From positions 1-46,572 of the IMG/VR virus record IMGVR_UViG_3300027653_000019: a DNA stretch of 46,572 bases, one strand, 5' to 3'. Of this stretch, positions 6,382 to 46,572 are shown piece after piece (within the stretch, counting starts at the first letter, position 1; the number at the start of each line of letters is the position of its first letter). The notes beneath the pieces were generated by a model. The model was not told where the DNA came from. It ran no database searches and saw nothing but the letters and a program-made list of their open reading frames with translations. The position numbers and the translations under genes are program-made. This stretch comes from a virus. Taxonomy: Duplodnaviria > Caudoviricetes.

Positions 6382-6834
6382 TCAGTACTCCACCCGTTCC
6401 GTGTTCGACACCCACGCATTGAAGGGGGCCACCCCCGCGGGTCGGGCATCCCGCTCCAGCCGTAATGGGGCCACCCCCCGGACCGCATCCCAAAACACCC
6501 GATCATCGAACCCCGCCGCCGCCGCATCCTCCGGCATGGCTGCATAAACAACCCGGTCCAACCTCGCCCACATCGCGGCCGTAAAGCACATCGGGCACGG
6601 GTAGGTGGAGGTGTATAGCACTCCCCCCGACAGATCATGGGTGCCTAATCCGGCGGCGGCGGCACGTATCGCCATCACCTCGGCGTGCGCGGTCGGATCA
6701 TGGGAGGCCGTCACCCGGTTAGTGGCCTCAAACAGGCGGCCGTGCATGTCAATGACCGCACCAAACGGGCCACCCCCACCCCGCGCCGCCTGTACGGCGA
6801 GGTCGATAGCCCGACCAAGCGGATCATCCCTCAT
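6382..6834 (-). CDS. guaD: Nucleobase deaminase, guanine deaminase GuaD-like (CDA fold)
   Basis: PFGAVI, HDPTAHAE, PCPMC zinc motifs and the C-terminal AAGFDD..F motif of Bacillus-type GuaD; ATGA overlap at 6831-6834. Confidence 0.85.
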   Translation of the reverse strand: MRDDPLGRAIDLAVQAARGGGGPFGAVIDMHGRLFEATNRVTASHDPTAHAEVMAIRAAAAGLGTHDLSGGVLYTSTYPCPMCFTAAMWARLDRVVYAAMPEDAAAAGFDDRVFWDAVRGVAPLRLERDARPAGVAPFNAWVSNTERVEY

Positions 6835-7442
6835 GCCGTGAGCCGGGCGCGCCGGGCACGGCGGGCGTCGGGGTTTAGGGTGAAGCGGAAGACGGTGGCC
6901 CACAGGAGCCCGCCCAGGGTTTTCGTTGCGGCCTGGGTTGCTACCAGCGCCAGCAGTGCGGCCCAACCGCCGACACCCGTAACACCGAAGGCAACTACCG
7001 GGAAGATGAGGGAGTCGGCCACCGCCCCGGCAACGTTCGACGCGTTAGAACGGACCATCCACCGGCGCCGGAACACCCCCTGAAACACGAGGGTCTCTAC
7101 GATGGAGGAACCCGTGAGGGCGGCAACGGATGCGATGGCGATCATCCCGGCTGACTGGTCCACCGCGTAGGCGAGGACACCGGCGGCAGCAATCATTACC
7201 AGCATGCGAGGCCAGAACGATCCGCCCCGGGATGCCCAGACGTCGTGAAGGTAATCGCGGGTAACGAGGACGACACCGACGGCGACGAATGCGGTAACCG
7301 GGAGGAACCATGGCCCGAAGTGGGCGATAGCGAGGTTGGCTAGGGCCATAACGGTGACGAATATGCCGATGGTGGCATATTCGATGATGCGGTCGGTGCG
7401 GAGCCATGCGGGGCGAATGCGGGGTGAGGGGCGAAGGTCCAC
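6831..7442 (-). CDS. VUT-family (YhhQ-like) putative queuosine-precursor transporter
   Basis: Multiple TM helices; LAN, RD.LH, RSNASN..GA..DS.IF..VAFG motifs; AAGGAG SD. Confidence 0.75.
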   Translation of the reverse strand: MDLRPSPRIRPAWLRTDRIIEYATIGIFVTVMALANLAIAHFGPWFLPVTAFVAVGVVLVTRDYLHDVWASRGGSFWPRMLVMIAAAGVLAYAVDQSAGMIAIASVAALTGSSIVETLVFQGVFRRRWMVRSNASNVAGAVADSLIFPVVAFGVTGVGGWAALLALVATQAATKTLGGLLWATVFRFTLNPDARRARRARLTA

Positions 7443-7478
7443 GGGGGCGCTCCTTGACGAGTTATGCCGGGGTCTCGG

Positions 7479-7528
7479 CGGGGCGCGCCGTGCGCCCCGG
7501 TTCGCATCCTAGTAGGACGGAACCGGGG
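7479..7528 (-). promoter_or_regulatory. Two overlapping, mutually exclusive hairpins upstream of the VUT gene
   Basis: ccccggttc(7495-7503)/gaaccgggg(7520-7528) and cggggcgc(7479-7486)/gcgccccg(7492-7499) share 7495-7499. Confidence 0.5.
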
Positions 7529-7537
7529 ATGTATGGG

Positions 7538-7645
7538 TTAGCGGCACTCGACGCAAAGGTTGAGGGTCTCGCCGTCCAGCTTGACGGTGATTGTCCCGGT
7601 GAAGTCCTCGCAGCCGTCGCAGAACATGGTGTCGGTGTGGTTCAT
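7538..7645 (-). CDS. 35-aa Zn-ribbon micro-protein (CDGC...CVEC)
   Basis: Manual translation MNHTDTMFCDGCEDFTGTITVKLDGETLNLCVECR; cassette upstream. Confidence 0.75.
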   Translation of the reverse strand: MNHTDTMFCDGCEDFTGTITVKLDGETLNLCVECR

Positions 7646-7704
7646 GGTGGTCTCCCCTCGGCGTGTGTGCTATCAGTATAGCTAAGGGGTGGGGGGTGTG
7701 GCAA
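7646..7704 (-). promoter_or_regulatory. Early promoter+RBS cassette (TTGCCA-18-TATACT)
   Basis: Motif family. Confidence 0.8.
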
Positions 7705-7709
7705 CGCCC

Positions 7710-8630
7710 TCACAGCCAGGGATGTGTATCCCCCCTCATCGTCCCCATCATGAGGTGCTGGGCGTAAGCGGAGTTCGCGCTGACCCCATCGGCCCCCCTC
7801 CTGGCCGCGTTCAGGTCCCCGCCCTTTACGTGGTTATCAACATCGAGCCACATGTCCGGGGGGAAGGACGCCACGCTAGTCAGCATTGCAAACGACCTCC
7901 ATGACGGCATCCACCTCCGATTGGTTACCCATGAGGACGAGTCGGACGACCCCCGGTGCGCCATGGCGATGAGGTTCTGATTAGGTGTCGCCCCAAGGAG
8001 GTGGGTCCATAGGTATGGGTATGCGCGCGCCCGTTCCGCCGCGGTCCACATGAGCCGCAGCCGTACCGGCTGGGATGCCTTGACGATGTTCCCGACGCAA
8101 ATACGGTCATAGCCGCGGGCTAGCGTGTCGTAGTAGTCCCACCCGTCGAGCAGGGGGTGATACACCGGGATTGGGACGATCCCGAACTCCTCCTCGATCC
8201 TCGCCCGCGTCCTCGGCTTATGACCCATCCCGCCCTGGTCAAGCTCGATGGCGCCCCACAGCCGGTCGCCGAACCGTGTCACGACCTCGCCGTAGCCGTC
8301 CCATAGTCGGTCGAACCCGTCAATCTCCTCGGGCGGCATTGATAGGCCAACGTCGTGTGATGTGTTGTGCTTCCGCGCATGCTCCATGGCGAGGTTGAAG
8401 ATGCCGGAGTCCAACAGCACGCGGCGCGTGTCGAGCAGTCGGTCGAACCGGTCCCAGGACGCCCGTGACCTCAGCTCGTTAACCGCGACAAGCACCTGCG
8501 GGTGGGGGGTTGCTAGTAGGGCGGTAGCGTCCCCCGCCAGAAAGTAGATGTAATGCTCGTCGGGGTCGAATACGTCCCCGGTTGTGGCCTTGACGCCCCG
8601 GGGGAGGTTCCGTTCAGCGGGGGCGGTCAT
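7710..8630 (-). CDS. TGT-fold (queuine tRNA-ribosyltransferase/DpdA-like) base-exchange enzyme
   Basis: LLDSGIF, IELD, IPVYH, ICVG, HLLG and SDSSSW motifs in TGT TIM-barrel order. Confidence 0.7.
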   Translation of the reverse strand: MTAPAERNLPRGVKATTGDVFDPDEHYIYFLAGDATALLATPHPQVLVAVNELRSRASWDRFDRLLDTRRVLLDSGIFNLAMEHARKHNTSHDVGLSMPPEEIDGFDRLWDGYGEVVTRFGDRLWGAIELDQGGMGHKPRTRARIEEEFGIVPIPVYHPLLDGWDYYDTLARGYDRICVGNIVKASQPVRLRLMWTAAERARAYPYLWTHLLGATPNQNLIAMAHRGSSDSSSWVTNRRWMPSWRSFAMLTSVASFPPDMWLDVDNHVKGGDLNAARRGADGVSANSAYAQHLMMGTMRGDTHPWL

Positions 8631-9412
8631 TTGATTCGCTCCACCGTCTCGTCAGGGAACGCGCTGCGGTGTTTGTCGATGAGATGCCCCGCCAGGTAGG
8701 TGTTCGGCTGCACCAGCAGCATGGTTTCGTCCCGCGCCCGATCCGACATGGTGAGGTAGGGGTCGGGGTAGGGGCAGAACAGTACGCCCTCCGTGAGGTA
8801 GTCCCGCCACAGCGGCCACTCGGTGAGGAGCTTGGCGACCACGAGGATGTGCCTGCCGATGTGCCACACCTCGTGGGCGGTGACGGCCTGGCGTGGTTCG
8901 GCCATGGTCACGTCCACGACCTGAAGTAGCTCCCCGGTTGTGGGGGCCCGTGCCTCGTCATCTGTCTCGCCGTACTCCTCCATAATCCGGTCGAGCCCGT
9001 GGCCCTCCTGTTCGATGAGGTCGCGGAGGTTGTCGGCATCGTCGTCGTCGTACAGTGTGCCGTCCATGCTGTCCATGGCCATGAGTAGGTCCAGGATGGT
9101 CCGGTTGTCGTTGGTGGCAATGTCGGAGGAGCGGTTGTCGGCGAGCATGATTTTTATGCCGGTCTCGTCATCCACGTCCCTCCAAATGACGGGGATCTCG
9201 GTTAACCCGGCCTCCAGCATGGCCAGGTAGCGGTGGTTGCCGACGAGAATGTGGCCGGTGGACCGCTGGGCGATCACGGGGGTGTACACGCCGTGGTGTT
9301 TCATGGACGTGTAGATCGCGCCTATATCGCCCCGCCTGGGGTTATCCGGGTGGGTTCGCAGCTTGGTCGGCGTCACGTATTCGACCGCCAGGTTAGTGGT
9401 GTCGGCCTTCAT
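8627..9412 (-). CDS. ParB-N domain protein 2, with a degenerate MTase-linker-like C-terminus
   Basis: HPDNPR, ILVGNHRY, IMLADNR; EVWHIGRHILV resembles the linker of ParB-methylase fusions; ATGA overlap. Confidence 0.8.
   Translation of the reverse strand: MKADTTNLAVEYVTPTKLRTHPDNPRRGDIGAIYTSMKHHGVYTPVIAQRSTGHILVGNHRYLAMLEAGLTEIPVIWRDVDDETGIKIMLADNRSSDIATNDNRTILDLLMAMDSMDGTLYDDDDADNLRDLIEQEGHGLDRIMEEYGETDDEARAPTTGELLQVVDVTMAEPRQAVTAHEVWHIGRHILVVAKLLTEWPLWRDYLTEGVLFCPYPDPYLTMSDRARDETMLLVQPNTYLAGHLIDKHRSAFPDETVERIK
9144..9184. repeat. 41-bp identical block within the ~300-bp duplicated ParB-N coding region (partner 11542-11582)
   Basis: agcatgatttttatgccggtctcgtcatccacgtccctcca at both sites. 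Confidence 0.95.
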
Positions 9413-10071
9413 TGATTGTCCCCCTGTTGGTGATTCCGGGTGCCGGTGAGTTGTAGGACCTCGGGCCTGTACAGTGGCGCCCCATCGAAGGATGGTTCCC
9501 ACGTCGCAAGCCGGTCGTCCTGGGGGATGACGCGCACGTCCCCCGATGCGACGGCATCCGCGGCCGCGGCGAGCATGTCCAGCCCTATTGGTGATAGATA
9601 TTCGCGCCACAGGTGCCTGTGATCGATGCCGGGCGGTATGACAACGTGCCTCTGGTCATGCAGGGGGCCGCCGTCCACGCGGTCGGTTAGGTGGTAGATC
9701 GATCCGCCCACAACCCTCTCCCCCATCCGGGCCTGCCAGCGCACGGCGTCCCGACCGCGGTGTAGCGGCAATAGGGATGGGTGGTATCCCATCGCGTATG
9801 GGGCGCGCGCCCGGGTGCGTGCGCCAATGAACGCGTGAGAATGTGCGGTAAGGATTAGCTCCGTCCCCTCGGGGACGGCCTCCGGGGTGAGGGTGGAAAC
9901 GACGGTGAGGGGCGCTCCCCCGTATATAGCCCACAGTGCAAGAAGGTCCGCCTTCCCCCGTCGCCCCCTTTCGGGGGCGGCGACACCTACGATCCGGTGG
10001 CCGCGGTCGATGAGCCGCTCCGCCGCTTGCCTGCCGAACCAGCCGGACCCGGCCAGGAAAATACGAGTCAC
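9409..10071 (-). CDS. Formyltransferase (Fmt/PurN fold)
   Basis: GYHPSLLPLHRGRDAVRW and GGSIYHLTDRVDGGP motifs. Confidence 0.88.
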   Translation of the reverse strand: MTRIFLAGSGWFGRQAAERLIDRGHRIVGVAAPERGRRGKADLLALWAIYGGAPLTVVSTLTPEAVPEGTELILTAHSHAFIGARTRARAPYAMGYHPSLLPLHRGRDAVRWQARMGERVVGGSIYHLTDRVDGGPLHDQRHVVIPPGIDHRHLWREYLSPIGLDMLAAAADAVASGDVRVIPQDDRLATWEPSFDGAPLYRPEVLQLTGTRNHQQGDNQ

Positions 10072-11249
10072 CCCGAGACCTTTCCGTAGTAGCGGAACCC
10101 CTGCACGGCCCGGAGGTGTCCCCCGTAGCCGACGCCTACACCCCCGGAGTCGAGCAACGAGTCGCGTGACCTTTTACGGTTCACCCCGTGAAGGACACCG
10201 CTGATCTGACGCCATGCGGGCGAGCGGCGCAGCCCCGCACACAGCCCCGGATGGGAGGTGTGGAAAACGGTGGTCATTCGCCTCGGCAACACGCCGTGGC
10301 CCTCTAGCTGCATTTGGGCTACGTGGTTGAGGAACCTCATACCAACCCCGGCGCCCTGCCATTCCGGTAGGACGACCATACGGCAGGCACGGGCCTCTAC
10401 CGCCCACACGCGGCGGCCCCTGGCGTTCCTGGCGGCCACGCTGCTCGTGCCCATACCGAGGTGCGCTACCGGCTCGCCGTCAACGAAGGCGACATAACAT
10501 TTTGCGCCGATCATGGGTCCCGAATCTAGATAGTGATGTGGCTTGAAAAATGGCCATAAGTCCCACCCACCCACCCGGATTTCCACGTTGATCCTCGGTC
10601 GGGACCACGGCCTTTCCCCCTCCTGTTCTCGTGCCTCGCGCGTCTGAAAGCGGTGGGTCGCCGTGTCGTATACCCAATCCGGTTCGACCCAATCGAGAAT
10701 GTCGTAATGGCAGGACAGGAGGACGGCCTTACCCCGGGTCCGTCGCCACGCCTTGGCGAACGCCCCGGCCCCTACCCTCGCGATCTGTCGATCCACTACG
10801 GAGGTGAACTCGTCGAGTACAACCCGGGGGGGCTGTTCCGCGAGGACGCGGGCGAGGTCGGCGCGGAATCGTTGGCCGGTGGACAGCACCCGGTAGGGCC
10901 GTAGCCAGGTGGGCACATCGCCGAGCCCGGCGGATGATAGGGCGCCCGTCACGGCGTCGAAGTCCCCGCCGGGGGCGATGGCGTCAACGATGGGGGCGTC
11001 CTCGGGCCACCCGTCAGGCTCATAGAAGGCCCCCCCTCCCCATAGTGCCCGGCCTATGGAGGACTTACCGGACCCGGAGGGGCCGACGATGACCCCGATA
11101 GACCAGTCGCCGTCGAGGTCCACGGCGAGGTTGGCGTTGAGGGTAAAGCGGGTCGCCTGCTCGTCGGTGGCGTTAAACAGGGACTTGACGCGGTTGGCGC
11201 GGTAGGACTGTGCCGGGGGGACGGATTGGTCGATGCGGATAGTGGGCAT
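10068..11249 (-). CDS. ABC-type ATPase fused to a Mom-like GNAT acyltransferase
   Basis: GPSGSGKS, LSTGQ, VVLDEF; C-terminal HHYL and RMVVLPEWQGAGVG (acyl-CoA binding). Confidence 0.85.
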   Translation of the reverse strand: MPTIRIDQSVPPAQSYRANRVKSLFNATDEQATRFTLNANLAVDLDGDWSIGVIVGPSGSGKSSIGRALWGGGAFYEPDGWPEDAPIVDAIAPGGDFDAVTGALSSAGLGDVPTWLRPYRVLSTGQRFRADLARVLAEQPPRVVLDEFTSVVDRQIARVGAGAFAKAWRRTRGKAVLLSCHYDILDWVEPDWVYDTATHRFQTREAREQEGERPWSRPRINVEIRVGGWDLWPFFKPHHYLDSGPMIGAKCYVAFVDGEPVAHLGMGTSSVAARNARGRRVWAVEARACRMVVLPEWQGAGVGMRFLNHVAQMQLEGHGVLPRRMTTVFHTSHPGLCAGLRRSPAWRQISGVLHGVNRKRSRDSLLDSGGVGVGYGGHLRAVQGFRYYGKVSG

Positions 11250-11810
11250 TTAAACGGTCACCACCCGGCACTCGAACCCCTGCTCGCGCAGCGTCTCGTA
11301 TGTGGCCTCCTGGTGTGCCTCGTCGGTGCATATAACGGTGACGGCGTATTGCTCCCGGTAGTTGTCGCTATCGGGGGCGGTTAGGAGGTCCGCGGACCCG
11401 GGTGCGCCGAGTAGTTCCTGTGTGAGATTGTCTAGGTCATCCCCGTCGTATAAGGAGCCCTCCAGGTCGGGCAGCGCTTGCAGGAGGGTGAGCATAGCGG
11501 ACTCGTCGTTGCTCGCGAGGTCGGACGCACGGTTGTCGGCCAGCATGATTTTTATGCCGGTCTCGTCATCCACGTCCCTCCAGATCACCGGAATCTCCGT
11601 CATCCCGGCCTCTAGCATCGCCCGGTAACGGTGGTTGCCGACGAGAATGTGCCCGGTGGACCGCTGCGCTATCACAGGCGTATAGACGCCGTGATGTTTA
11701 ATCGACGTGTAGATCGCCCCCACGTCACCCTGCCGCGGGTTGTCGGGATGGGTTCGCAGCTCGGTGGGTTCGACGTACTCCACCTGCAAGCTCGTTGTGT
11801 CCGCTTTCAT
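11250..11810 (-). CDS. ParB-N domain protein 1 with a small C-terminal domain
   Basis: Same ParB-N motifs as 8627..9412; ATGA-coupled to terminase. Confidence 0.85.
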   Translation of the reverse strand: MKADTTSLQVEYVEPTELRTHPDNPRQGDVGAIYTSIKHHGVYTPVIAQRSTGHILVGNHRYRAMLEAGMTEIPVIWRDVDDETGIKIMLADNRASDLASNDESAMLTLLQALPDLEGSLYDGDDLDNLTQELLGAPGSADLLTAPDSDNYREQYAVTVICTDEAHQEATYETLREQGFECRVVTV

Positions 11811-13492
11811 CGTGCTCCTCCTCGTCGTCCGCGCCGGTCGGTCATCGCGGCCCGCGCGATGTTGCGCGGTGCCCCCATTGTGGCCAGCCTGTGGGTGGGG
11901 TTACGGCCCGGCACCGTCACCGTGCCCCGCCCGGCGTCACGGAACTCCAGCAGCGCCTGGCTGAGGGCGTCCACCTGGTCATCGTTGATGTCGTGGGGGA
12001 AGTTCCGTAGTTCGCTCAGCAGGTCGGGCACCCATGATGCCTCCTGCGGGTGAGGCAGCAGGACGTGACCGGACTCGACCTCGGGGGTGATGGCGCGGGC
12101 GCGGGCCTCCTTGGAATCGCGTGGCCTCACGGATTTCATGCCCGAAACCTTGTTGCGCATCACGTCGAGGATCGCGGGGCCATTGGCGGACTCCTCCACC
12201 AGCCGCAGGTGAACGTGGGCGCCGTAGGGGGAGGCGAACTCGTCATCCGTTTTGGCCCACTCCTCCATCTCCTCCAGCGCCTGCGTGAACGACCACCGTC
12301 CGCGGCGCTGGGCGACAAGCACCCGGTAGGGGCCGGTGCGCACCCAGCGTTGACCGACCACAAAGTCGCTGGAATCGGTGCCCTTGAATGACGTGTCCCA
12401 CGAGTCGAGCCACCGCCCGGTGGTGAGCTGTTCCCGGTCGAGGAGGATCACCCGGTCGTCGTCGGCCAGGTTGGGGTCTAGCGTCCAGTACCGCCACCAC
12501 GTGTCGTCGAAAATGGCGCCCTGAGCGGGGGCGGGGGTTTGCTGGTAGAGCGCGGCCCACGTGTAGGAGCCGACGGTGCGGCGGGTCTCATCCCACCGGG
12601 TTAGCGCCTCGTCACGGTCCTCATCTAGAAGGGGCGACAGTAGCGGCTCCCCGACCGCGCGGCCCAACGGGTCGTCCTCCCCGGCGAGCGCCCCTAACCG
12701 GATGTACTCCCACCGGGCGGGGTCCCCCTCATATTCGGCGGACATGAGGCGGCCGATGAGGTCGTCCTCATGCCAACGGGACATGACGACAATGACGAGG
12801 TAGGGCGGTTCGAGTCGGGTTTGGGCGGTGGACAGCCACCAGTCCCACAGCCGCTGCCGGTGCACCTCGGAATGGGCGTCGGCGAAGTCCTTTACCGGGT
12901 CGTCGATGAGGAACACTCGGGCGCCGCGGCCGATAATGGGGCCCTGGGTGGACGTGGCGAACACGCCGCCACCGTTGTCGGTGGCCCACCGGGTACCGGC
13001 CCCACCGTCGGGGGCGATGGACACCCCGAGGGTCGGGTGCTCCTCAATCGTGTTGCGGATCGAGCGGGCCCACTCCCCTGCCAGCGCCCCATCCTGGGAG
13101 GTCATAATGATCTGCCATTCGGGGTGACGGCGCAGCAGCCACAGGGGGGTGTGCTGGGACAGCAGCGTCGACTTACCCGCACGCGGTGGCATGGATACGG
13201 CCAGCAGCCGGTTTTGGCCGCGTTCCACGTCACGCACCGCTACGGTGATGCGTTCCGCGAGGTAGTCCAGGTGCGGGCGGGCCCGGTAGGTGTCGTCGAG
13301 TTCGAGGGCCTGGGCGACGGGGGTTGCTGGCAGGCCCAGGCCATGTTCCAGGCGGTAGCGGCGTGTAATCTGGCTGATCCGTCGGGCCACGGCGCGGGCC
13401 TCGGCGTCGTTGGTGGCGGCGGCGGACAGTGTGCGGAGGCGGTCGAGGAGTTCACGCACATCATTCGGGTGTGTCGGCAGTGTCGCCGTCAT
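11807..13492 (-). CDS. terL: Terminase large subunit
   Basis: SMPPRAGKS Walker A, FLIDDP Walker B, SWDTS and NDDQVDA nuclease motifs. Confidence 0.95.
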   Translation of the reverse strand: MTATLPTHPNDVRELLDRLRTLSAAATNDAEARAVARRISQITRRYRLEHGLGLPATPVAQALELDDTYRARPHLDYLAERITVAVRDVERGQNRLLAVSMPPRAGKSTLLSQHTPLWLLRRHPEWQIIMTSQDGALAGEWARSIRNTIEEHPTLGVSIAPDGGAGTRWATDNGGGVFATSTQGPIIGRGARVFLIDDPVKDFADAHSEVHRQRLWDWWLSTAQTRLEPPYLVIVVMSRWHEDDLIGRLMSAEYEGDPARWEYIRLGALAGEDDPLGRAVGEPLLSPLLDEDRDEALTRWDETRRTVGSYTWAALYQQTPAPAQGAIFDDTWWRYWTLDPNLADDDRVILLDREQLTTGRWLDSWDTSFKGTDSSDFVVGQRWVRTGPYRVLVAQRRGRWSFTQALEEMEEWAKTDDEFASPYGAHVHLRLVEESANGPAILDVMRNKVSGMKSVRPRDSKEARARAITPEVESGHVLLPHPQEASWVPDLLSELRNFPHDINDDQVDALSQALLEFRDAGRGTVTVPGRNPTHRLATMGAPRNIARAAMTDRRGRRGGAR

Positions 13493-13994
13493 CGCTGACC
13501 ACCTCCTCGATTACCTCGGCCTCTAGCATGTGATCCAGCTCGGCGAGGGCGGTCTGCATTTCGCGGCGTACCGACACCGATAGGTCGACCTGTTGGGGAA
13601 CGTTGAGGCCGTTCATTTTCGCCCGGTGCTCACTGAGACGACGGAACTCACTCACGGCCTTAATGTCACCCTCCAGCACCCGGGCCCATATGGCGGCCTG
13701 GGCCCGGTCGACGCGCGCGTTTTCGAGGGCGCGCATGTGGGCGACGGTGCGGTTCTCCGCGGTCGTCAACAGGTTGTCAATGAGGCTGGTGACCCGCGAC
13801 TCGCTGATCCCGAGGCGTTCCGCGATAGTGCCTATTGGTAGCCCGGCTAGGCGCATGGATAGGGCCTCGACCCGTCGGGCGCGGCTGATTTCCTTTGCCG
13901 CGGGGGTGTTGTGCGGGGCGCCGGAGGTGCGGCCCGATTGGTCAAGGGCGGCCGACACCTCGGCCGCTGCGTCGGAGGGTTTAGCCATGGTCAT
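13461..13994 (-). CDS. Terminase small subunit / HTH protein
   Basis: EALSMRLAGLPIGTIAERLGIS HTH; immediately upstream of terL. Confidence 0.75.
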   Translation of the reverse strand: MTMAKPSDAAAEVSAALDQSGRTSGAPHNTPAAKEISRARRVEALSMRLAGLPIGTIAERLGISESRVTSLIDNLLTTAENRTVAHMRALENARVDRAQAAIWARVLEGDIKAVSEFRRLSEHRAKMNGLNVPQQVDLSVSVRREMQTALAELDHMLEAEVIEEVVSDDGDTADTPE

Positions 13995-14257
13995 CTCCAC
14001 AGCGACTCGGGGTGTCGGGCGGTCCAGTCCTCGATGACCTGCGGGTAAAGGTCCCTTTCGGTGCGTAACCGTATTTCGGTGTACTCCTCTGCGTAGCGTT
14101 CCATGAGCCGTTTACGGGTGAGTCGCATGACGTTCTGGGCGAAGTTGTTGCAGGTGGGGCAGCGGTTGCGGCGGTTGCCGATTCTGGCCATGCCGGTGTG
14201 GCCGCGCATCCTGCATTCGGGGCACGGCAGCGCCGGGATGTCTAATGGGTCGGCCAC
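13991..14257 (-). CDS. Small Zn-finger protein (CPEC...CPTC)
   Basis: ORF track; ATGA-coupled to terS. Confidence 0.7.
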   Translation of the reverse strand: MADPLDIPALPCPECRMRGHTGMARIGNRRNRCPTCNNFAQNVMRLTRKRLMERYAEEYTEIRLRTERDLYPQVIEDWTARHPESLWR

Positions 14258-14263
14258 GCCCCG

Positions 14264-14276
14264 AGGGTACTACGTA
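14264..14276 (-). promoter_or_regulatory. Putative leaderless late promoter (CGTAG-TACCCT, 6 nt before GTG)
   Basis: Matches 1222-1234. Confidence 0.45.
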
Positions 14277-14642
14277 CTACAGATCGGTCATCTGCATCAC
14301 GTCGCTGGTGTCACCCTCGGCGGCCGCGTACAGCAGGCGGGCGGGTAGGGACACCTCGGCGTGGCCCTCGTAGCGGTGGCAGCAGTTGTCGAACTCCCAA
14401 CCCGAGCCGGTGAGCACTTCGATCATGCCCAGGCTGTCCTCGATGATGGAGCCGATGGGGAGGGCGGCGAGGTCGTCCACGGTCGTGATGACGCGGGGCT
14501 GGAACAGGGGCAGGACGGCCTCGACTATCTTCTTGCGGAGTCGGCCGGTGTCCCTCCCGATCACGGCCACGGGGTCGGGATGGTTCATGGCGTTGAACAG
14601 GACGGCGCCGACGGCGCGGTCCACGGCGTCTCGCTTGATCAT
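14277..14642 (-). CDS. Hypothetical protein with an ITT..L.ALP.GS.I module
   Basis: ATGA overlap, GAGG SD; module shared with 2697..3407. Confidence 0.75.
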   Translation of the reverse strand: MIKRDAVDRAVGAVLFNAMNHPDPVAVIGRDTGRLRKKIVEAVLPLFQPRVITTVDDLAALPIGSIIEDSLGMIEVLTGSGWEFDNCCHRYEGHAEVSLPARLLYAAAEGDTSDVMQMTDL

Positions 14643-14941
14643 TCGGGCACCTCGGGGGGGTTCAGGCAGTCGGCGCAGTGGCGGGACTCGGCCCACCCGA
14701 GCGTCGTGACGTGGGTGGGCGTGACGGGCTTGTGGCAGCGCTGGCAGGTGGGCGGGGGCCAGGTGAGGAGCCCGGCGTGAGAGAGCGCTTCGGCGACGTG
14801 ACGGTGGTATTGCTTCCAGAAGCCGTGTGCGTCCCGTCCCCACTCGGGTTCCCAGGAGCACGCGCAGATGACCTCCGGCGTGCGGAGGAGTTGGTGGTGG
14901 GTTAGCACGGCGGCGGCGAGGTCGATCATGGGGTCCGGCAT
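14639..14941 (-). CDS. Cys/His-rich hypothetical protein
   Basis: GGAGGAGG SD before MPDPMIDL; HVAEALSHAGLL resembles the AQALADAGLL linker. Confidence 0.75.
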   Translation of the reverse strand: MPDPMIDLAAAVLTHHQLLRTPEVICACSWEPEWGRDAHGFWKQYHRHVAEALSHAGLLTWPPPTCQRCHKPVTPTHVTTLGWAESRHCADCLNPPEVPE

Positions 14942-14987
14942 GGCGGCCTCCTCCCTACGTGTACGGCCAGCATACGGTCGGGGCGGT

Positions 14988-15179
14988 TCACGTTCGGCTC
15001 CAGGGTCCGGTGTCATCGTGGTAGCGGATGCGCTGGCGCATCGTGGTCGGACGGCCGGGGTGGACGCGGAAGAAGTGATCGTCGGCCCAATCCGCCACTT
15101 CGTCGGGGGACGCGAGCCAGAGCGACAAGCCGTGGCAGTAGTCGCACCTGCCCCGCCAGTCCATTACGGCGGGGATCAT
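14988..15179 (-). CDS. Small Zn-binding protein
   Basis: CDYC...H...H; ATGA overlap. Confidence 0.6.
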   Translation of the reverse strand: MIPAVMDWRGRCDYCHGLSLWLASPDEVADWADDHFFRVHPGRPTTMRQRIRYHDDTGPWSRT

Positions 15180-15382
15180 GCGGGCCTCCGTGAAGGGTGC
15201 AGTCGGTACAGGTGGCGGGTGAGGTCGCGGACCCGCGTAAATGGGCCTTCGTCGCAGACCTGGCAGAACAGGGCGGGGCGCCCGGCGCGTAGGACCTCGC
15301 GCGTGAGGGGGCCGAGGGTGCCGTCTAGCATGCGGCCCTCCTCCCCCTGGGCGGGTGTGGGGGACATGCGGGTTCCCTTCAT
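15176..15382 (-). CDS. C2H2 zinc-finger micro-protein
   Basis: FCQVCDEGPFTRVRDLTRHLYRLH. Confidence 0.65.
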   Translation of the reverse strand: MKGTRMSPTPAQGEEGRMLDGTLGPLTREVLRAGRPALFCQVCDEGPFTRVRDLTRHLYRLHPSRRPA

Positions 15383-15386
15383 CGGG

Positions 15387-15590
15387 TTAGGTGACGTTGA
15401 CCCAGCGCATGACGGTACGGAGCATGTGGTCGTAGTCGCCGCTGGAGGCTTCGTTAAGGAAGTCGTTTGCCTCGTCCCGGGGCACTCCGTGGCTGAGGAG
15501 GAGGGCGCGGACGAAGCCGAGGATGTAGAAGGCGTTGCCGTCGCGGGCGCTGAGGTCGGCGGTGATGTGGGGGTACTTGGGTGTGGTCAT
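15387..15590 (-). CDS. Small phage protein (DGNAF...DYDH.L family)
   Basis: Recognisable motif; cassette upstream. Confidence 0.8.
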   Translation of the reverse strand: MTTPKYPHITADLSARDGNAFYILGFVRALLLSHGVPRDEANDFLNEASSGDYDHMLRTVMRWVNVT

Positions 15591-15648
15591 GATGTTCCCC
15601 TCTCCGTGTGTGTATTACTAGTATAGCTCGGTGGGGGTGGGACTGCAA
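15591..15648 (-). promoter_or_regulatory. Early promoter+RBS cassette (TTGCAG-17-TATACT)
   Basis: Motif family. Confidence 0.8.
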
Positions 15649-15652
15649 CAGA

Positions 15653-15690
15653 TTGAGGCCCGCAACCCCACACCGGGACGCGGGCCTCAA
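15653..15690 (-). terminator. Hairpin terminator after the endolysin
   Basis: ttgaggcccgc/gcgggcctcaa 11-bp inverted repeat just after the stop. Confidence 0.7.
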
Positions 15691-15698
15691 CCATCAAC

Positions 15699-16967
15699 TC
15701 ACCGACGGAAGAACGCCCCATCGACAAGCGCCTGCTGCAACGACCGAACCGTGTACGGCCCGAACACGCCGTCGACCGCGTGCCCCGTGTACCCGCGGTC
15801 GCGCAGCCACTGCTGCAACGAACGCGTCGTCCAGTAGCCCCACCGGCCGTCGATTGCGTGCCCCCGCTGTCCCTGCGCACGCAGGAACCGTTGGAGCGAG
15901 GTGATCGAATATCGCCCGAAGGACCCGTCCAGTGCGTGGGTCTTGTAGCCGTTATGCCGCAGCACGTTCTGCAAGGCGATCTTGGTGTAATACCCGAAGT
16001 CGCCGTCTACGTTGACGGTCCAGTCGGTGTGCGGCACCCGCCCTGACCGGCGACCCGATGGGGGGGCGGTCGGGCGCGTGTAAATGCGCTGCCCGTGGTA
16101 GTCCTCGGTCCACCCGCGCACGGTCATCTGCCACGACCTCGTGAGGTCGGCGATGCGGACCTTACCAATCGCGCCGCCCGGGCCGACCGAGGTCGAGATA
16201 CAGTAGCCGCCACCAACACTCAGTGCGACGTGACCGAGGCCGTGGTTCCGGTTAGCCGGATGCAGCTCCCAGAAGATCGGGACACCGGCGGGGGCGTTGT
16301 TGATGTCGCGGTGCCGGTACCTTGTCCGGTTCCACGCAATCGTCGCGGACGGGTTGCGGGCGGGGAAGCCGAAACATTCCCGCACGAACTTCTCGCACCA
16401 CCCGCCGTAGTTGCGGTTACCGATCATGCTCTGGGCGTGAGCGATACGCTGACTCACCGATCTTGCCATGCTCTCCTCCTCGATAGGGTCCGTGGCGGCC
16501 ACGAACGCCTCCCAGCCGCCGCGGTCACGCAGAATGGCCGGGCAGTCCTTGCCGTTGAAGTGATGGTGCTGGACGACGGCACTCCGGCCGAGACCCGTCG
16601 CGGCCCGACGCATCCGAAACCATCTCACGGCGAGAGCGAGGGCCGCGTCATAGTCGCCGTCGGCGTTGACGCACATTTCGTATGCCTCGCCGTTGAAGTT
16701 GCCGCCGTCGGGGTCGTCGCCGTCCCCGGCGTGCCAGCAGCGCACATCCGACTCGAACGAGCGCACGACCTCCCTGTCGTCACCCTGGACGTGCCAGGAG
16801 GCGTTGCGGACGTTGCCGCTGGCCTGGAGGCGGGCGTGCGCGTCGGCGTTCGCGCCGACACGCGGGTTAGCGGTTTCGTGGAACACGAGGAAGCGGACGG
16901 GGTTGCCCCGTCCGTAGGTTTTCGCCTCGATCACGTCCTCGCCCGCGAGGGCCAGCCGTTCCATCAC
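15699..16967 (-). CDS. Endolysin: Amidase_2 + CHAP/NlpC-like peptidase + PG-binding repeats
   Basis: HETAN, ASWH, WHAGDG, KDCP; GWCEKFV...GHVALS; four DG.(F/W)G....LQ repeats. Confidence 0.92.
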   Translation of the reverse strand: MMERLALAGEDVIEAKTYGRGNPVRFLVFHETANPRVGANADAHARLQASGNVRNASWHVQGDDREVVRSFESDVRCWHAGDGDDPDGGNFNGEAYEMCVNADGDYDAALALAVRWFRMRRAATGLGRSAVVQHHHFNGKDCPAILRDRGGWEAFVAATDPIEEESMARSVSQRIAHAQSMIGNRNYGGWCEKFVRECFGFPARNPSATIAWNRTRYRHRDINNAPAGVPIFWELHPANRNHGLGHVALSVGGGYCISTSVGPGGAIGKVRIADLTRSWQMTVRGWTEDYHGQRIYTRPTAPPSGRRSGRVPHTDWTVNVDGDFGYYTKIALQNVLRHNGYKTHALDGSFGRYSITSLQRFLRAQGQRGHAIDGRWGYWTTRSLQQWLRDRGYTGHAVDGVFGPYTVRSLQQALVDGAFFRR

Positions 16968-29551: not shown

Positions 29552-29980
29552 CTAGCCGCCCCCAGCCGGGCGGCCACCGTAGGTCCCCTCGGGCGGGTGC
29601 TCGCCGTGCGGGCCGAAGTTGGGGTCGTGCCCACCAACGGGCCCGGTCGTGCGGCGCGGGACGCTCCTATCGCCCACACGCTGCGCCCTATCCGTAACCT
29701 CGGTCGGCTTCCACACATTCGTGTACGCACCCCACGACACGAGCAGCGCGATGACGAGCGTCTGTAACGCCACGCCGAGGTCGTAGGTGCCGCCGTCCTG
29801 CCAGGTGCGCACCGCCTCACCGAGCAGCGACTGCACCGTGTTGAGCGCGGTGAGCAGCAGCACCTTATATACGGACTTGGTGAACGTCTTCGTCACCAGC
29901 CCCACCAGGATCGGCAGAACAAACGCGGCGACAATATTCGCCCACGCGATCCCGTCCCACGTCAACGTTACGAGTCCCAT
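29552..29980 (-). CDS. Holin
   Basis: VLPILVGLVTK motif, TM helices; follows the tail genes. Confidence 0.75.
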   Translation of the reverse strand: MGLVTLTWDGIAWANIVAAFVLPILVGLVTKTFTKSVYKVLLLTALNTVQSLLGEAVRTWQDGGTYDLGVALQTLVIALLVSWGAYTNVWKPTEVTDRAQRVGDRSVPRRTTGPVGGHDPNFGPHGEHPPEGTYGGRPAGGG

Positions 29981-43895: not shown

Positions 43896-45749
43896 TCAGT
43901 CCGTCGTCGGGTCCGTGACGGCGGTGCCGTCATGGTTGATGAGCACCCCGGCGTGCGTCGCGCCGGTCGTGTCGAGCGGCACCGTAACCCGCCGGGACTC
44001 CGGTCCCATGCGCGCCACGAGCCACGACTCCTCCGTAAACAGGGCCGTGTAGTCGTTGGTGCCCAGGTTCACGCTGTCGTAGATCGTGTCGAGCGTGATC
44101 ACGTCCCCACCACCGGCAACCCACGCACCGGCCGGGTAAAGCAGGAACTCCACCTCGGTCGGCCACGCGGTGAAGTCGGCGGCGTCCCCGGTGATGTCCT
44201 GCCAGTTGTAGATGAACTGCGGGGCCACGCCACGCTCCGCGAACCACGCGTTGATCCGGCTGTTCGGGACACTGATCATGTCCACGCCCAGGCGCCGGGC
44301 GAGGTCCGCGCGGATCGCGCCGTGCGTCCACAGCGGGAACACGGCCTCCAGGGTCGTGCTCCGGCTGATCCGGTGCACGTAACGGTAGTGCTCGACCTGG
44401 AGTTCGACCGCCGTCAGGAGCGGGGCCGTCGCGCCGACCTGCCCGGACGGCATGGTCAGGGCCTCCGACCCGGCAGCAACAGCGTTGACCCGGCGGGCGG
44501 CCATCTTGTGGTCGTGCGCCACAAGCGCCCCGCGGATCGTGCGCGCAATAACCTCAGGGTAGCCGCGTGCCTGCAACAGTCCGGCGGTGATGCACAGCCC
44601 GGCAATGTTGAGGCGGGCCTCCTCGAACGGCGGGCAGTCGACGTGGTAGCACGGCTTGCTGCCCTCGCTGCCGTTACCCTCACCGGTGGCGTCGGTGCCG
44701 TAGGTGCCGTCGATGTCGTGCTGCTCGGTGTACGAGAACCCGGTGTTGTCGTAGATGTCGCGGAACGACGGCCCCCGCGTGAACTGGAACCCTCCCCGGT
44801 TCACCCCGACCTCCGGAAGGGAGTACAGGCCGTCACGCGACTCCAGTTCGAGGAGGTTGTCGTACAGCACCTCGGATGGGGCGCACCAACCGCCGGACGC
44901 GACAAGCGCCCCCTGCGGGGTGTTGCGCTCATCCGTCACCCGCGCCAGCACCTCGGCCACATGCTCCGGGTCGCTGTTCTTGATGACCTGATCATCATTG
45001 AACGGCTTACGGATGGTGACGAGGGAATGCTGCTCGCGTAGGGCCCGACCGGATCGGCGTGCCGTCTCATACGTTTGGGTGTTGAAGCCCATGAGGCGGC
45101 GGTCGAGGGCGCGGGCGGCGTCCATGAAGTCAATACCCTGCCCGTCACGCAGGCCCGGGGCGTCGTTGGCGAACATCACCGACCGTACCCCGGTGGCGCC
45201 CGGCTCCTCCCGCGGCTCGTGGCGCCGTCCCCGGCCGGACAGGTTGACGCGGACGGGGCCGCGGCGCGCGGAGGCTGCAACCGCCTCCGGTTCCTCCACG
45301 GCCTCCCCCTCAACGGCCTCCTCGGCGGGGTCCTCGGCTGCCGCCTCGGGGGTCTCGGTGGCCTCACCCTCATCAGGGTCCTCGGCGTCCCCCTCGGCCG
45401 CCGGTGCCTCGGCCTCGTCCTCACCGCGAACGCGGGTAGCCAGTTCCGCGGCCTTCTCGGCGCGGGCGGCGGCCTGCTCCTCCCGCACGGCGACCTCGGC
45501 GTTCAGTACCTCGATGCCCTCGGTGAGCGCTTCAAGGGTGGTGACATCCTCGTCGGACAGGTTCGACCCGTCACCGTAGAGGCTGTCGAAGTGGTCGACG
45601 GCCTGGGCGTGGAGGGCGGCGAGGTCGTCGTCGCTGAGGGTGGATAGGTCTTCGGGCACCTCAAACGAGGTGGTGTCGTCTTCTAGCTGTTCGCTTTGAT
45701 CCTCGTACTGGGTTGCGAGGCGTGCGATGCGGCCGATGGCGCGTGCCAT
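43896..45749 (-). CDS. Major capsid (hexamer-type) protein with an acidic coiled-coil scaffold-like N-terminus
   Basis: GGAGG SD; ASGGWCAPSEVLYD, KPCYHVDCP, NDYTALFTEE. Confidence 0.9.
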   Translation of the reverse strand: MARAIGRIARLATQYEDQSEQLEDDTTSFEVPEDLSTLSDDDLAALHAQAVDHFDSLYGDGSNLSDEDVTTLEALTEGIEVLNAEVAVREEQAAARAEKAAELATRVRGEDEAEAPAAEGDAEDPDEGEATETPEAAAEDPAEEAVEGEAVEEPEAVAASARRGPVRVNLSGRGRRHEPREEPGATGVRSVMFANDAPGLRDGQGIDFMDAARALDRRLMGFNTQTYETARRSGRALREQHSLVTIRKPFNDDQVIKNSDPEHVAEVLARVTDERNTPQGALVASGGWCAPSEVLYDNLLELESRDGLYSLPEVGVNRGGFQFTRGPSFRDIYDNTGFSYTEQHDIDGTYGTDATGEGNGSEGSKPCYHVDCPPFEEARLNIAGLCITAGLLQARGYPEVIARTIRGALVAHDHKMAARRVNAVAAGSEALTMPSGQVGATAPLLTAVELQVEHYRYVHRISRSTTLEAVFPLWTHGAIRADLARRLGVDMISVPNSRINAWFAERGVAPQFIYNWQDITGDAADFTAWPTEVEFLLYPAGAWVAGGGDVITLDTIYDSVNLGTNDYTALFTEESWLVARMGPESRRVTVPLDTTGATHAGVLINHDGTAVTDPTTD

Positions 45750-45876
45750 GGTGTCCTCCGTGGTGACAGTTGGTGCGGTTGTCACCGAGGCCCTGCATGC
45801 CATGCCGGTCCCGAGGCCCTATACGCCATCCGGGTACTGCTAATGGTGAGGGTAGCACGTCGTGGTGGAGACGCGG

Positions 45877-46572
45877 CTAGGGATAGGCTACGCCAGGCCA
45901 GTCAGCCTCATCAGGGAACGGGTCGGAAGTGTGGTAGCAGCCCCCCGGCGTCCACCTGAAATCGTTGTCATCTGCCGGCGTTTTTAGCACGTGCAAGTCA
46001 TTCGCTCGTGCTCTCACCGCCGCACTCTTGACCTCTCCGGACAAGATGTTCATAGTCATCCCGACCTGCTGCACACCCGTCCCCCTAAATCCGACAGGCA
46101 TGGACCAGAACGCCCCCTGGTTGCCGAAAGTGACGCCGAAGATTGACGGGTCTCCCAAGAACACGGTGTCTCCTACTCGGCGCACCATGAGCGCCCCGCC
46201 GTGCACACGCTCGTTCAGTTCGGCGGTAATGTCTCGCCACCCGGTGTCGAGGATCGAGCCGGGAGGTCCCTGTTCGCCGGGGTCGCCCTTGTCACCCTTG
46301 TCACCCTTGTCACCCTTCGGGCCGGGCACCGTAGAGTCCGCACCCGCCGGACCTTGTGGCCCTTCCGGGCCTTGCGGCCCTTCCGGCCCTTCCGGGCCAG
46401 TGTCGCCGGGGTCACCCTTCTCGCCATTGTCGCCCCGGAACCCGCGCGGCCCCTGCTCACCCTGATACCCGCGCGGCCCCCGCTCCCCGATGTCGCCCTT
46501 GTCGCCCTTGTCGCCCTTCTCCCCAGTGTCGCCCTTCGGCCCCCTCAGATTCTCGATGGGATACCACTCGAA
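45877..46572 (-). CDS. Collagen-like fibre protein, C-terminal part (5' end outside the window)
   Basis: Frame open to the window end; GDK/GPQ/GPE repeats, then a DTGWRDI...RRVGDTV fibre-tip domain. Confidence 0.8.

What the first reader, a model, noticed from the sequence alone, without database searches (positions are those of the whole stretch)
6382..11810. Candidate novel DNA base-modification pathway coupled to terminase: TGT-fold + formyltransferase + ABC/GNAT + precursor transporter + guanine deaminase
Seen: terL is followed by a run of overlapping or abutting genes ParB1 > ABC-ATPase/GNAT > formyltransferase > ParB2 > TGT-fold protein, then (after an early promoter) a Zn micro-protein > VUT transporter > GuaD-like deaminase. 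Established: phage DpdA (TGT fold) swaps DNA guanine for 7-deazaguanines; YhhQ/VUT imports preQ0/preQ1; a formylated preQ1 DNA base made by a phage formyltransferase (DpdN) is known; Mom-like GNATs acylate DNA bases; ParB-N proteins accompany phage modification loci. Inference: there is no folE/queD/queE/queC in the window, so the phage would salvage a base, insert it by transglycosylation and decorate it with formyl and/or acyl groups around packaging time. The GuaD-like partner is not part of the dpd pathway as I know it and may point to a new base (deaminated or xanthine-type).
Basis: partly seen in the sequence, partly recalled or inferred. Interest (0 to 1): 0.92.

Follow-up and report, generated by a model that had tools for sequence, protein, structure and literature searches.

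The report
Two fused phage DNA-modification cassettes
The genes are real, but they form two separate phage cassettes placed end to end, not one pathway: one likely swaps guanine in the phage DNA for a scavenged 7-deazaguanine, with a guanine deaminase that likely destroys the released guanine, and the other is a widespread, previously predicted but untested cassette that likely adds a small acyl group to DNA.

Summary
All gene calls hold. 7710..8630 has a TGT fold (pLDDT 94.7; top structural matches arcTGT and DpdA) and keeps three family-invariant Asp residues. The single-pathway reading fails. Cassette A (ParB1, ABC/GNAT, formyltransferase) and cassette B (ParB2, TGT) were never found together elsewhere: 0 of 57 A loci carry TGT, and 0 of 181 B loci carry A. 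The formyltransferase belongs to a group the DpdN authors excluded from the deazaguanine pathway.

Cassette B is a divergent DpdA1-related family that normally sits with folE/queD/queE/dpdL (QueE in 98 of 101 informative loci). Here those genes are absent from a contig about 66% complete, and a VUT importer plus GuaD follow. GuaD is tied to this chemistry: 22 of 78 viral GuaD-like loci lie in deazaguanine clusters of differing predicted end product. It keeps every B. subtilis GuaD active-site residue, which favours a guanine sink over a new base.

The scan had already noted cassette A many times and GuaD in gut-phage clusters. New here: a separately acquired actinobacterial GuaD, a salvage-type cassette B, and the tandem junction between two 80%-identical ParB domains. 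Verdict: new variant of known kinds.

The parts
13461..14000 (-). Putative terminase small subunit (context)
   Evidence: HTH hits and position before terL; relatives sit beside cassette B in L001; the name is inferred from position
11807..13492 (-). Terminase large subunit (context)
   Evidence: Terminase_6N/6C; phrog_38 6.6e-87
11250..11810 (-). Cassette A: ParB1, a ParB-N domain plus a ~46-aa C-terminal domain specific to cassette A
   Evidence: ParB_N; C-domain matches 45 of 57 A loci and 0 of 181 B loci; stands alone as phiE255 gp28
10068..11249 (-). Cassette A: ABC-type ATPase fused to a GNAT acyltransferase
   Evidence: 68-71% identical to gp2 of ten Gordonia phages, 53% to phiE255 gp29
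9409..10071 (-). Cassette A: Fmt-like formyltransferase, not DpdN
   Evidence: follows ABC/GNAT in 50 of 57 loci; ortholog group listed without dpd genes by Cui et al. 2023
11542..11582 (.). 41-bp repeat inside parB1 (copy 1); position computed from the parB1/parB2 offset
   Evidence: longest identical run 41 nt, 76% DNA identity over 387 nt; unitig break
9144..9184 (.). 41-bp repeat inside parB2 (copy 2)
   Evidence: 41-nt unitig at depth 27.9
8627..9412 (-). Cassette B: ParB2, a ParB-N domain plus a ~100-aa C-terminal domain specific to cassette B; likely activator of the transglycosylase (DpdB-like role, inferred)
   Evidence: C-domain matches 158 of 181 B loci and 0 of 57 A loci; N-domain 80% identical to ParB1
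7710..8630 (-). Cassette B: divergent DpdA1-related DNA guanine transglycosylase (TGT fold; D74, D131, H158 invariant, D230 nearly invariant)
7675..7704 (-). Sigma-70-like promoter consensus; one of three related sites (others start at about 6376 and 15649)
   Evidence: consensus match only
7538..7645 (-). 35-aa CxxC...CxxC micro-ORF; no evidence that it belongs to either cassette
   Evidence: sequence; no family hit
6831..7442 (-). VUT/QPTR-family transporter, likely a 7-deazaguanine base importer
   Evidence: Vut_1, phrog_4899; TIGR00697 below cut-off; nearest relatives lie in TGT/DpdL/Que clusters or beside phage TGT genes
6382..6834 (-). GuaD-type guanine deaminase (actinobacterial type), translationally coupled to VUT by an ATGA overlap
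   Evidence: 1WKQ E 4e-30; HAE50, PCPMC79, GFDD108 and C-terminal Tyr150 kept; tree

Best explanation
The region is two independently inherited phage cassettes in tandem after the terminase: cassette B likely swaps guanine in phage DNA for an imported 7-deazaguanine while GuaD likely removes free guanine, and cassette A likely puts a separate, still unknown acyl or formyl mark on DNA. Shown: the gene identities, the TGT fold, the separate inheritance of A and B, the cassette-specific ParB tails, and the recurrence of GuaD inside deazaguanine clusters. Inferred for B: from the early-type promoter at 7704, VUT imports a 7-deazaguanine base (preQ0, preQ1 or 7-deazaguanine; identity unknown) and GuaD converts guanine to xanthine. 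Later, the terminase-linked ParB2 loads or activates the transglycosylase, which cuts out G through a covalent D230-DNA intermediate with D74 as acid/base (residue roles assigned by motif) and inserts the imported base. DpdA also re-inserts free guanine, so removing guanine would make the exchange one-way, which matters most when the deaza base must be scavenged. This phage's ancestors made the base themselves (folE/queD/queE/dpdL, predicted dDG); this lineage lost or moved those genes. Inferred for A: ATP-dependent GNAT acylation of a DNA base with a formyltransferase-supplied group, independent of B. The likely purpose of both is protection from restriction.
For: Fold: the 50 listed Foldseek PDB hits are all TGT; VIA arcTGT Z 16.9 and DpdA 7UI4 Z 16.0, against 13.9 for the best unrelated barrel. 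The family profile scores CAjan DpdA1 at E 1e-17, DpdA2 at 0.17 and DpdA3 at 0.4-0.8. B context: of 101 loci with at least 4 kb downstream, QueE 98, FolE 94, DpdL-like 90, ParB2 95, ABC/FMT/GuaD 0. After clustering at 80%, the DpdL motif is in 47 of 55 clusters and the QueC motif in 5 of 55. The DpdL-like gene hits phiST CGPG_00067 and ACP17 YP_009609725.1. QueC and DpdL swap 8-9 times on the tree with no clear pocket signature, so the enzyme likely tolerates several bases. A context: FMT 50 of 57, ParB1 46 of 57, TGT 0 of 57. GuaD: 22 of 78 viral loci lie in deazaguanine clusters. A DpdA-like gene was found in 17 of 21 held cluster records and 0 of 14 other held records. GuaD shifts position and occurs with ArcS, Gat-QueC, QueF or no biosynthesis genes. 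An unrelated low-GC phage has TGT-DUF6884-GuaD-VUT with no que gene in the locus (L380). The closest viral GuaD sits in QueC-DUF6884-GuaD-VUT-terL (L246). Chromosomal actinobacterial GuaDs sit by purine-catabolism genes in 6 of 15 loci and by que/VUT/TGT genes in 0 of 15. Papers: DpdA/B exchanges [14C]guanine into DNA in the presence of ParB-like DpdB and ATP (PMC10164549 passages); CDA-fold guanine deaminases are described as strict for guanine (PMC9081823 passages); the ABC-GNAT system was predicted earlier (PMC7824862 passage).
Against: No biochemistry and no virion DNA. The contig is about 66% complete, so biosynthesis genes could lie elsewhere. GuaD is optional: 0 of 181 loci of this TGT family carry it; it is in 24 of 59 loci (10 of 29 clusters) of a gut-phage DpdA set that was seeded from GuaD carriers and is therefore biased upward; and no named cultured phage gave a full-length GuaD-type hit. 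VUT also sits inside complete biosynthetic clusters (L034, L160-L162, CAjan), so it does not by itself prove salvage. A DpdA-only actinophage, Orion, carries no modification (PMC6884629 passage). Hitchhiking of GuaD from Firmicutes chromosomal que operons was not tested. The GuaD tree was a quick search without Firmicutes chromosomal sequences. The chemistry of cassette A is untested by anyone in the papers I could search.
Confidence: 0.58

Rival explanations
1. One coupled pathway: imported preQ1 is inserted by the TGT, and its free amine is formylated or acylated by the formyltransferase and ABC/GNAT, giving fdPreQ1 or a new acyl-preQ1.
For: All five genes are in one overlapping run. The two ParB-N domains are 80% identical to each other and at most 52% to any of 238 other loci, with 45 synonymous and 26 non-synonymous differences in 129 codons, so they have shared a genome for some time. 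preQ1 has an amine, and fdPreQ1 exists (PMC10516641).
Against: 0 of 181 and 0 of 57 cross-occurrence. The formyltransferase group was excluded from DpdN by its authors, and immuto_2-6A DpdN is not among 37 hits at E<=0.01. Cassette A persists in phages with no TGT in the locus, so it has its own target. QueF was not found beside this TGT family by tblastn, apart from one weak QueF-like ORF in L178.
Confidence: 0.1
2. GuaD deaminates a 7-deazaguanine to a 7-deazaxanthine-type base, which the TGT inserts: a new DNA base.
For: GuaD recurs inside deazaguanine clusters and is translationally coupled to the importer. The window GuaD forms a small clade with three to four unnamed proteins at 60-68% identity, whose context I could not fetch.
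Against: All B. subtilis GuaD active-site residues and the C-terminal Tyr are kept. The enzyme class is described as strict for guanine (7-deaza analogues are not mentioned there). The TGT keeps the Asp and His that read guanine's Watson-Crick edge (roles from PMC10164549). GuaD occurs with clusters predicting different end bases. A xanthine-type base would pair poorly with C (own knowledge).
Confidence: 0.07
3. Cassette B is de novo, not salvage: folE/queD/queE/dpdL lie in the missing third of the genome, the base is dDG, and VUT and GuaD are accessories.
For: Record about 66% complete; nearest relatives L167, L001, L169 and L170 carry DpdL; in some GuaD-carrying jumbo phages the TGT lies tens of kb from the que genes.
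Against: In 98 of 101 informative loci QueE lies within 8 kb of the TGT. Salvage-type versions of this family exist: L035/L193 ParB-TGT-QueC-QPTR and L177/L178 ParB-TGT-DpdL-VUT.
Confidence: 0.12
4. Cassette B is an orphan in decay or is conditional, giving little or no modification in the natural host; GuaD and VUT serve general purine scavenging.
For: Orion, with DpdA only, is unmodified; the host is unknown and may lack preQ0; GuaD is also common in giant-virus records without que genes (23 of the 78 loci carry a GVMAG label).
Against: All ORFs are intact with conserved catalytic residues; VUT relatives track TGT genes; GuaD-VUT-TGT recurs independently (L380, L265, L287).
Confidence: 0.13

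Closest known systems
Phage DpdA1 DNA transglycosylases (Escherichia phage CAjan gp35); 'DpdA-only/YhhQ' group 3 of Hutinet et al. 2019 (PMC6884629)
   Same: TGT barrel, DSG and DSSSW motifs align with CAjan DpdA1 (profile E 1e-17); DpdA plus YhhQ/VUT without biosynthesis genes is a catalogued arrangement.
   Different: No tblastn hit among 50,697 phage records at E<=1e-3; no Pfam or NCBIfam hit; GG of the CAjan pocket is GN here; near-obligate ParB partner with its own C-domain; family mostly linked to DpdL; GuaD partner.
DpdL/dDG pathway of Cellulophaga phage phiST (Cui et al. 2023, PMC10516641)
   Same: Relatives of the window TGT sit with FolE, QueD, QueE and DpdL and mostly lack QueC.
   Different: phiST uses DpdA3, which this family does not resemble by profile (E 0.4); the window itself has none of these biosynthesis genes.
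Bacterial DpdA-DpdB (Salmonella Montevideo; PMC10164549) and ParB-dependent phage T-dioxygenases (PMC13229309)
   Same: A DNA-modifying enzyme paired with a ParB-superfamily protein; DpdA structure 7UI4 matches at Z 16.0.
   Different: ParB2 has a GNHR motif, not DpdB's DGQQR; no DpdC or restriction genes; dependence on ParB2 is untested.
Phage ABC-ATPase + GNAT 'acyl nucleobase' system (predicted by Iyer et al., cited as ref. 136 in PMC7824862)
   Same: Same fusion; pT24, the paper's example phage, is among the hits; ParB/terminase or genome-end position.
   Different: Here with a formyltransferase and in tandem with a TGT cassette, a pairing seen in 0 of 57 other loci; the original 2013 paper was not held.
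Bacillus subtilis GuaD guanine deaminase (PDB 1WKQ/1TIY)
   Same: Full-length match E 4e-30; Zn ligands, catalytic Glu, FDD and terminal Tyr kept.
   Different: Phage-encoded and coupled to a VUT gene, not to purine-catabolism genes.
[quoted passage not shown]
   Same: PF00551 superfamily.
   Different: Different group; no FolE-to-QueF pathway; linked to ABC/GNAT instead.

Membership tests
DpdA/TGT transglycosylases | TGT (beta/alpha)8 fold | tested here: met
   AF2 pLDDT 94.7; Foldseek; VIA Z 16.9 arcTGT, 16.0 DpdA
DpdA/TGT transglycosylases | Three active-site Asp and the base-reading His | tested here: met
   D74, D131, H158 invariant and D230 at least 90% in 118 sequences; equivalence to DpdA D95/D130/H181/D256 assigned by motif and by profile alignment to CAjan, not by residue-level superposition
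DpdA/TGT transglycosylases | Genomic link to 7-deazaguanine synthesis or import | tested here: met
   QueE 98 of 101, FolE 94 of 101 in relatives; VUT in the window
DpdA/TGT transglycosylases | Exchanges G in DNA for a 7-deazaguanine | not testable with these tools
   needs LC-MS/MS
DpdA1 subfamily | Closer to DpdA1 than to DpdA2, DpdA3 or DpdA4 | tested here: inconclusive
   CAjan DpdA1 E 1e-17 versus ACP17 DpdA2 0.17 and two DpdA3 0.4 and 0.8; one DpdA1 reference only, DpdA4 not compared, no direct BLAST hit
DpdN | Co-encoded with DpdA and FolE to QueF | tested here: not met
   0 of 57 loci of its cassette carry TGT or que genes; none of folE/queC/queD/queF in the window (incomplete record)
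DpdN | Falls in the DpdN sequence group of Cui et al. 2023 | tested here: not met
   orthologs QNL30130.1 and YP_001111230.1 are listed without dpd genes and are not among the four proteins named DpdN; immuto_2-6A absent from 37 hits
GuaD guanine deaminase (CDA fold) | HAE / PCxxC Zn site, FDD motif, C-terminal Tyr tail | tested here: met
GuaD guanine deaminase (CDA fold) | Guanine to xanthine activity | not testable with these tools
   homologs in purine-catabolism contexts in 6 of 15 chromosomal loci is indirect
QPTR/YhhQ transporter | Vut_1 domain above cut-off | tested here: met
   32.6 bits versus 27.2
QPTR/YhhQ transporter | TIGR00697 / NF008406 equivalog cut-off | tested here: not met
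   25.6 versus 50.95 and 18.9 versus 252 bits: a divergent phage subgroup, substrate unknown
Phage ABC-GNAT acyl-DNA system | ABC ATPase fused to GNAT with ParB-like partner | tested here: met
Phage ABC-GNAT acyl-DNA system | Acylates a DNA base | not testable with these tools
   prediction only (PMC7824862 passage)
Mom (phage Mu) | Mom-family GNAT using Gly-tRNA to make 6-NcmdA | not tested
   no direct comparison with Mom was run; mechanism read in PMC13219725 passages

The most novel reading that the evidence does not exclude
This phage has wired two formerly separate DNA-modification cassettes together through homogenised ParB domains, so that an imported preQ1-type base is inserted and then formylated or acylated by the ABC/GNAT-formyltransferase cassette, or GuaD supplies a 7-deazaxanthine; either way a DNA base or route not yet described.
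Probability: 0.14. Interest if true: 0.85.

Novelty: new variant of a known kind. Interest (0 to 1): 0.48.

Why it matters
(1) It gives a testable accessory step for phage 7-deazaguanine modification: a guanine deaminase recruited at least twice, in low-GC gut phages and in actinophages, likely to pull the reversible base exchange. I found no paper holding guanine deaminase together with these terms. If true, it could also raise yields when DpdA enzymes are used to label DNA. (2) It outlines a large DpdA-related family (385 proteins) with a dedicated ParB partner, mostly DpdL-linked and with no cultured tblastn hit. Heterologous tests of DpdL, DpdA3 and DpdA4 failed in Cui et al.; a ParB-paired enzyme is a new candidate for reconstitution. 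(3) ParB proteins with near-identical N-domains and cassette-specific tails suggest a modular adaptor scheme for packaging-linked DNA modification. (4) Cassette A's chemistry is a long-standing prediction that can be tested in cultured Gordonia phages.

Tried and rejected
One coupled pathway: rejected by co-occurrence. Formyltransferase = DpdN: rejected. TGT = DpdA2 or DpdA3: not supported. Cap10-like non-catalytic TGT fold (9NTN, Z 15.2): considered and set aside because the Asp residues are kept and the context is que genes. Chimeric assembly at the parB repeat: not supported. Predicting the inserted base from pocket residues (DpdL- versus QueC-linked enzymes): no clear signature. TGT with ParB2 C-domain complex prediction: no answer, not evidence either way. 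Sequence search of PDB with the TGT found nothing meaningful. The single-sequence GuaD scan of viral contigs found nothing; the alignment scan did. Terminase relatives were only 28-35% identical and uninformative. No RNA holder was listed. Not held, so not read: Iyer et al. 2013, the 2020 ABC-ATPase classification and the 2024 MMBR deazaguanine review (the first three identifiers were recalled). The review may already mention GuaD. PMC11130926 has no 'deaminase' or 'DpdA' in its main text. The GuaD and TGT trees were quick searches. Supplements were read only for PMC10516641.

Full report
OBSERVATION. The window is an actinophage-like siphovirus record (major head phrog_777, major tail, tape measure, holin, amidase, Erf, SSB). 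It is linear and estimated 66% complete. On the minus strand, terL (11807-13492) is followed by ParB1, ABC/GNAT, formyltransferase, ParB2 and a 306-aa protein, all overlapping or abutting. Then come a sigma-70-like site at 7704-7675, a 35-aa CxxC/CxxC ORF, a Vut_1 protein and a CDA-fold deaminase joined by ATGA. Family searches confirm each call. The promoter core recurs just after the deaminase and at about 15620 (3 matches against 0.17 expected; context), so VUT-GuaD is its own unit between two similar sites, and the micro-ORF looks like one of the small ORFs behind such sites. No folE, queC or queD was found by family search, nor queE, dpdL, queF or arcS by tblastn. Unitigs from the one run that holds the DNA have equal depth across the region and break only at a 41-bp repeat shared by the parB genes. 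This argues against a chimera, though the run may be the source of the window.

THE 306-aa PROTEIN. It has 385 homologs, no Pfam or NCBIfam hit, and no tblastn hit in 50,697 phage records. Its AlphaFold model (pLDDT 94.7, pTM 0.92) matches TGT in all 50 listed Foldseek PDB hits. The unfiltered VIA search ranks archaeosine TGT (Z 16.9, rmsd 3.9, 255 aligned) and DpdA 7UI4 (Z 16.0, rmsd 3.1, 239 aligned) first; the best unrelated barrel scores 13.9. D74, D131 and H158 are invariant and D230 nearly so. By motif these match DpdA D95, D130, H181 and D256 (PMC10164549 passages). A family profile scores CAjan DpdA1 at E 1e-17 but DpdA2 and DpdA3 references at 0.17-0.86 (DpdA4 not compared).

CASSETTE B. 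I fetched 181 loci of this family (the window's own contig left out; some loci are duplicates). Of 101 with at least 4 kb downstream, 98 carry QueE, 94 FolE, 90 a second QueD paralog and 95 ParB2; none carries ABC/GNAT, the formyltransferase or GuaD. The second QueD paralog has the LxxxHRHxF motif and hits phiST CGPG_00067 and ACP17 YP_009609725.1, both named DpdL by Cui et al.. In 55 clusters at 80% identity the DpdL motif is in 47 and the QueC motif in 5. The family therefore mostly predicts dDG. QueC replaces DpdL 8-9 times on a quick tree, without a clear pocket signature, so the enzyme likely accepts more than one base. The window's nearest relatives carry DpdL or QueC, so this lineage lost or moved the synthesis genes. 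Other stripped versions exist (L035/L193 with QueC and QPTR; L177/L178 with DpdL and VUT; cultured phage Roos with ParB-DpdL-TGT-QPTR). The window's VUT is 32-48% identical to VUTs inside ParB-TGT-DpdL-que clusters and related to those beside TGT genes of cultured phages. DpdA with YhhQ and no synthesis genes was catalogued in 2019; one DpdA-only actinophage, Orion, is unmodified (PMC6884629 passages).

CASSETTE A. ABC/GNAT is 68-71% identical to gp2 of ten Gordonia phages and 53% to phiE255 gp29. In 57 loci the formyltransferase follows in 50 and a ParB1-like gene precedes in 46; TGT, VUT, GuaD and que genes are in 0. It sits before the terminase in Mariokart and after tail genes in phiE255 and a Porphyromonas phage; that Mu's mom occupies a similar position is recalled. 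The fusion was predicted earlier to acylate a DNA base (PMC7824862 passage; the original paper was not held). Cui et al. list the Mariokart, Ligma, NHagos, Yago84, BiggityBass and phiE255 formyltransferases with no deazaguanine genes and exclude the non-DpdN groups from the fdPreQ1 pathway. Earlier notes of this scan met cassette A in at least 8 genomes.

THE JUNCTION. ParB1's tail matches 45 of 57 A loci and 0 of 181 B loci; ParB2's tail matches 158 of 181 B loci and 0 of 57 A loci. Their N-domains are 80% identical to each other but at most 52% to any other locus, with 45 synonymous and 26 non-synonymous codon differences in 129. Inference: cassette A entered by recombination at a parB gene, or the N-domains were homogenised afterwards, and each tail is an adaptor for its own enzyme. 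Precedents for ParB-dependent modifiers are DpdB and phage T-dioxygenases (passages). A complex prediction gave no answer.

GuaD. The protein matches B. subtilis GuaD over its full length, with the Zn ligands, catalytic Glu, FDD and terminal Tyr kept. An alignment scan gave 78 viral loci; 23 carry a giant-virus label. Twenty-three loci hit a deazaguanine gene. I count 22 as clusters, leaving out L249, which has only a QueC-like hit that I did not inspect; I read the ORFs of 15 of the 22. GuaD takes several positions in the clusters and occurs with ArcS, Gat-QueC, QueF or no core synthesis genes, sometimes near a purine-PRTase-like gene. L380 has TGT-DUF6884-GuaD-VUT only (record 21% complete). 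The closest viral relative, L246 (56%, 69% GC), has QueC-DUF6884-GuaD-VUT-terL. On a quick tree the window and L246 lie among actinobacterial-type GuaDs, split from the low-GC phage clade by a branch of support 95, pointing to at least two recruitments. Chromosomal actinobacterial GuaDs lie by purine-catabolism genes in 6 of 15 loci and by que, VUT or TGT genes in 0 of 15 (1.5 kb flanks). Against: GuaD is optional (0 of 181 in this TGT family; 24 of 59 in a biased gut-phage set) and no named cultured phage gave a full-length hit. I reached this pattern and then found that note e1-5756899 had reported it for gut phages with the same reading. In searches no paper held all terms and none of the 20, 20 and 12 listed (of 40, 77 and 37) contained 'guanine deaminase'; the 2024 MMBR review was not held.

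MECHANISM. DpdA works through a covalent intermediate and re-inserts free guanine. Replacing 1-30% of G in 50-100 genomes would release about 0.04-2.3 mM guanine in 1 fL (my assumptions). A guanine-strict deaminase (PMC9081823 passages) would remove this competitor and likely spare the 7-substituted base, which matters most when the base is scavenged. Occurrence with different end bases fits a general sink better than a step toward one new base. Shown: identities, fold, separate inheritance, GuaD recurrence. Inferred: import, insertion, ParB dependence, sink, timing, and all of cassette A's chemistry.

PAPERS SEEN. PMC10516641: main-text parts 2-5 of 7, supplement part 1 of 19 and a term search. 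Passages only: PMC6884629, PMC10164549, PMC7824862, PMC13229309, PMC13219725, PMC11130926, PMC9081823. All others: search listings.

VERDICT. Observation confirmed; interpretation partly supported. Not one new pathway but two cassettes of known or predicted kinds, with a real and apparently unpublished GuaD accessory and an unusual tandem junction. New variant of a known kind; interest 0.48; best explanation 0.58; most novel reading 0.14.

Noticed in passing
window 7704-7675, 6376-6347, 15649-15620 (minus strand): Three copies of a promoter-like motif TTGC..N17-18..AGCTATACT followed by ACACAC and a ribosome-binding site, each before a small ORF; a loose end near 5197 in the read laying shows a related motif. 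Likely a conserved phage early promoter.
   Followed up: partly
window 11807-16967 and 43896-46572: The terminase genes lie far from the capsid genes and downstream of the amidase, no portal gene was found, and the holin-like gene (29552-29980) is about 13 kb from the amidase (15699-16967): an unusual layout for this head/tail type.
   Followed up: no
L001-L102, L167-L245: A large ParB-TGT-DpdL-QueD-QueE-FolE family (predicted dDG) in uncultured phages and in Kitasatospora, Amycolatopsis, Streptomyces, Pseudonocardia and Haloactinopolyspora genomes; no earlier scan note matched these words. Culturable hosts may make DpdL testable.
   Followed up: partly
L345 (Faecalibacterium phage Roos, PP479939.1, 51706-54302): A cultured gut phage with ParB, DpdL-like, TGT-like and QPTR genes, all annotated hypothetical, at the end of its record.
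   Followed up: partly
L288:5388-5951, L293:6486-6869, L308:5521-5928: A small purine-PRTase-like gene beside or near GuaD in gut-phage deazaguanine clusters (6 of 59 loci), suggesting recycling of released guanine or xanthine.
   Followed up: partly
L246, L380, L386: DUF6884 recurs between TGT or QueC and GuaD/VUT in salvage-type clusters; the window lacks it.
   Followed up: no
L292:2185-3378: A phage QueF interrupted by an intein with an HNH domain.
   Followed up: no
L104:4834-4998 (phiE255 gp28): The ParB1 C-terminal domain exists as a stand-alone 54-aa protein before ABC/GNAT in this phage, so the tail, not ParB-N, is the conserved partner of cassette A.
   Followed up: partly
L247-L284 and related loci: GuaD-type deaminases are common in giant-virus records without any deazaguanine genes, a separate use.
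   Followed up: no
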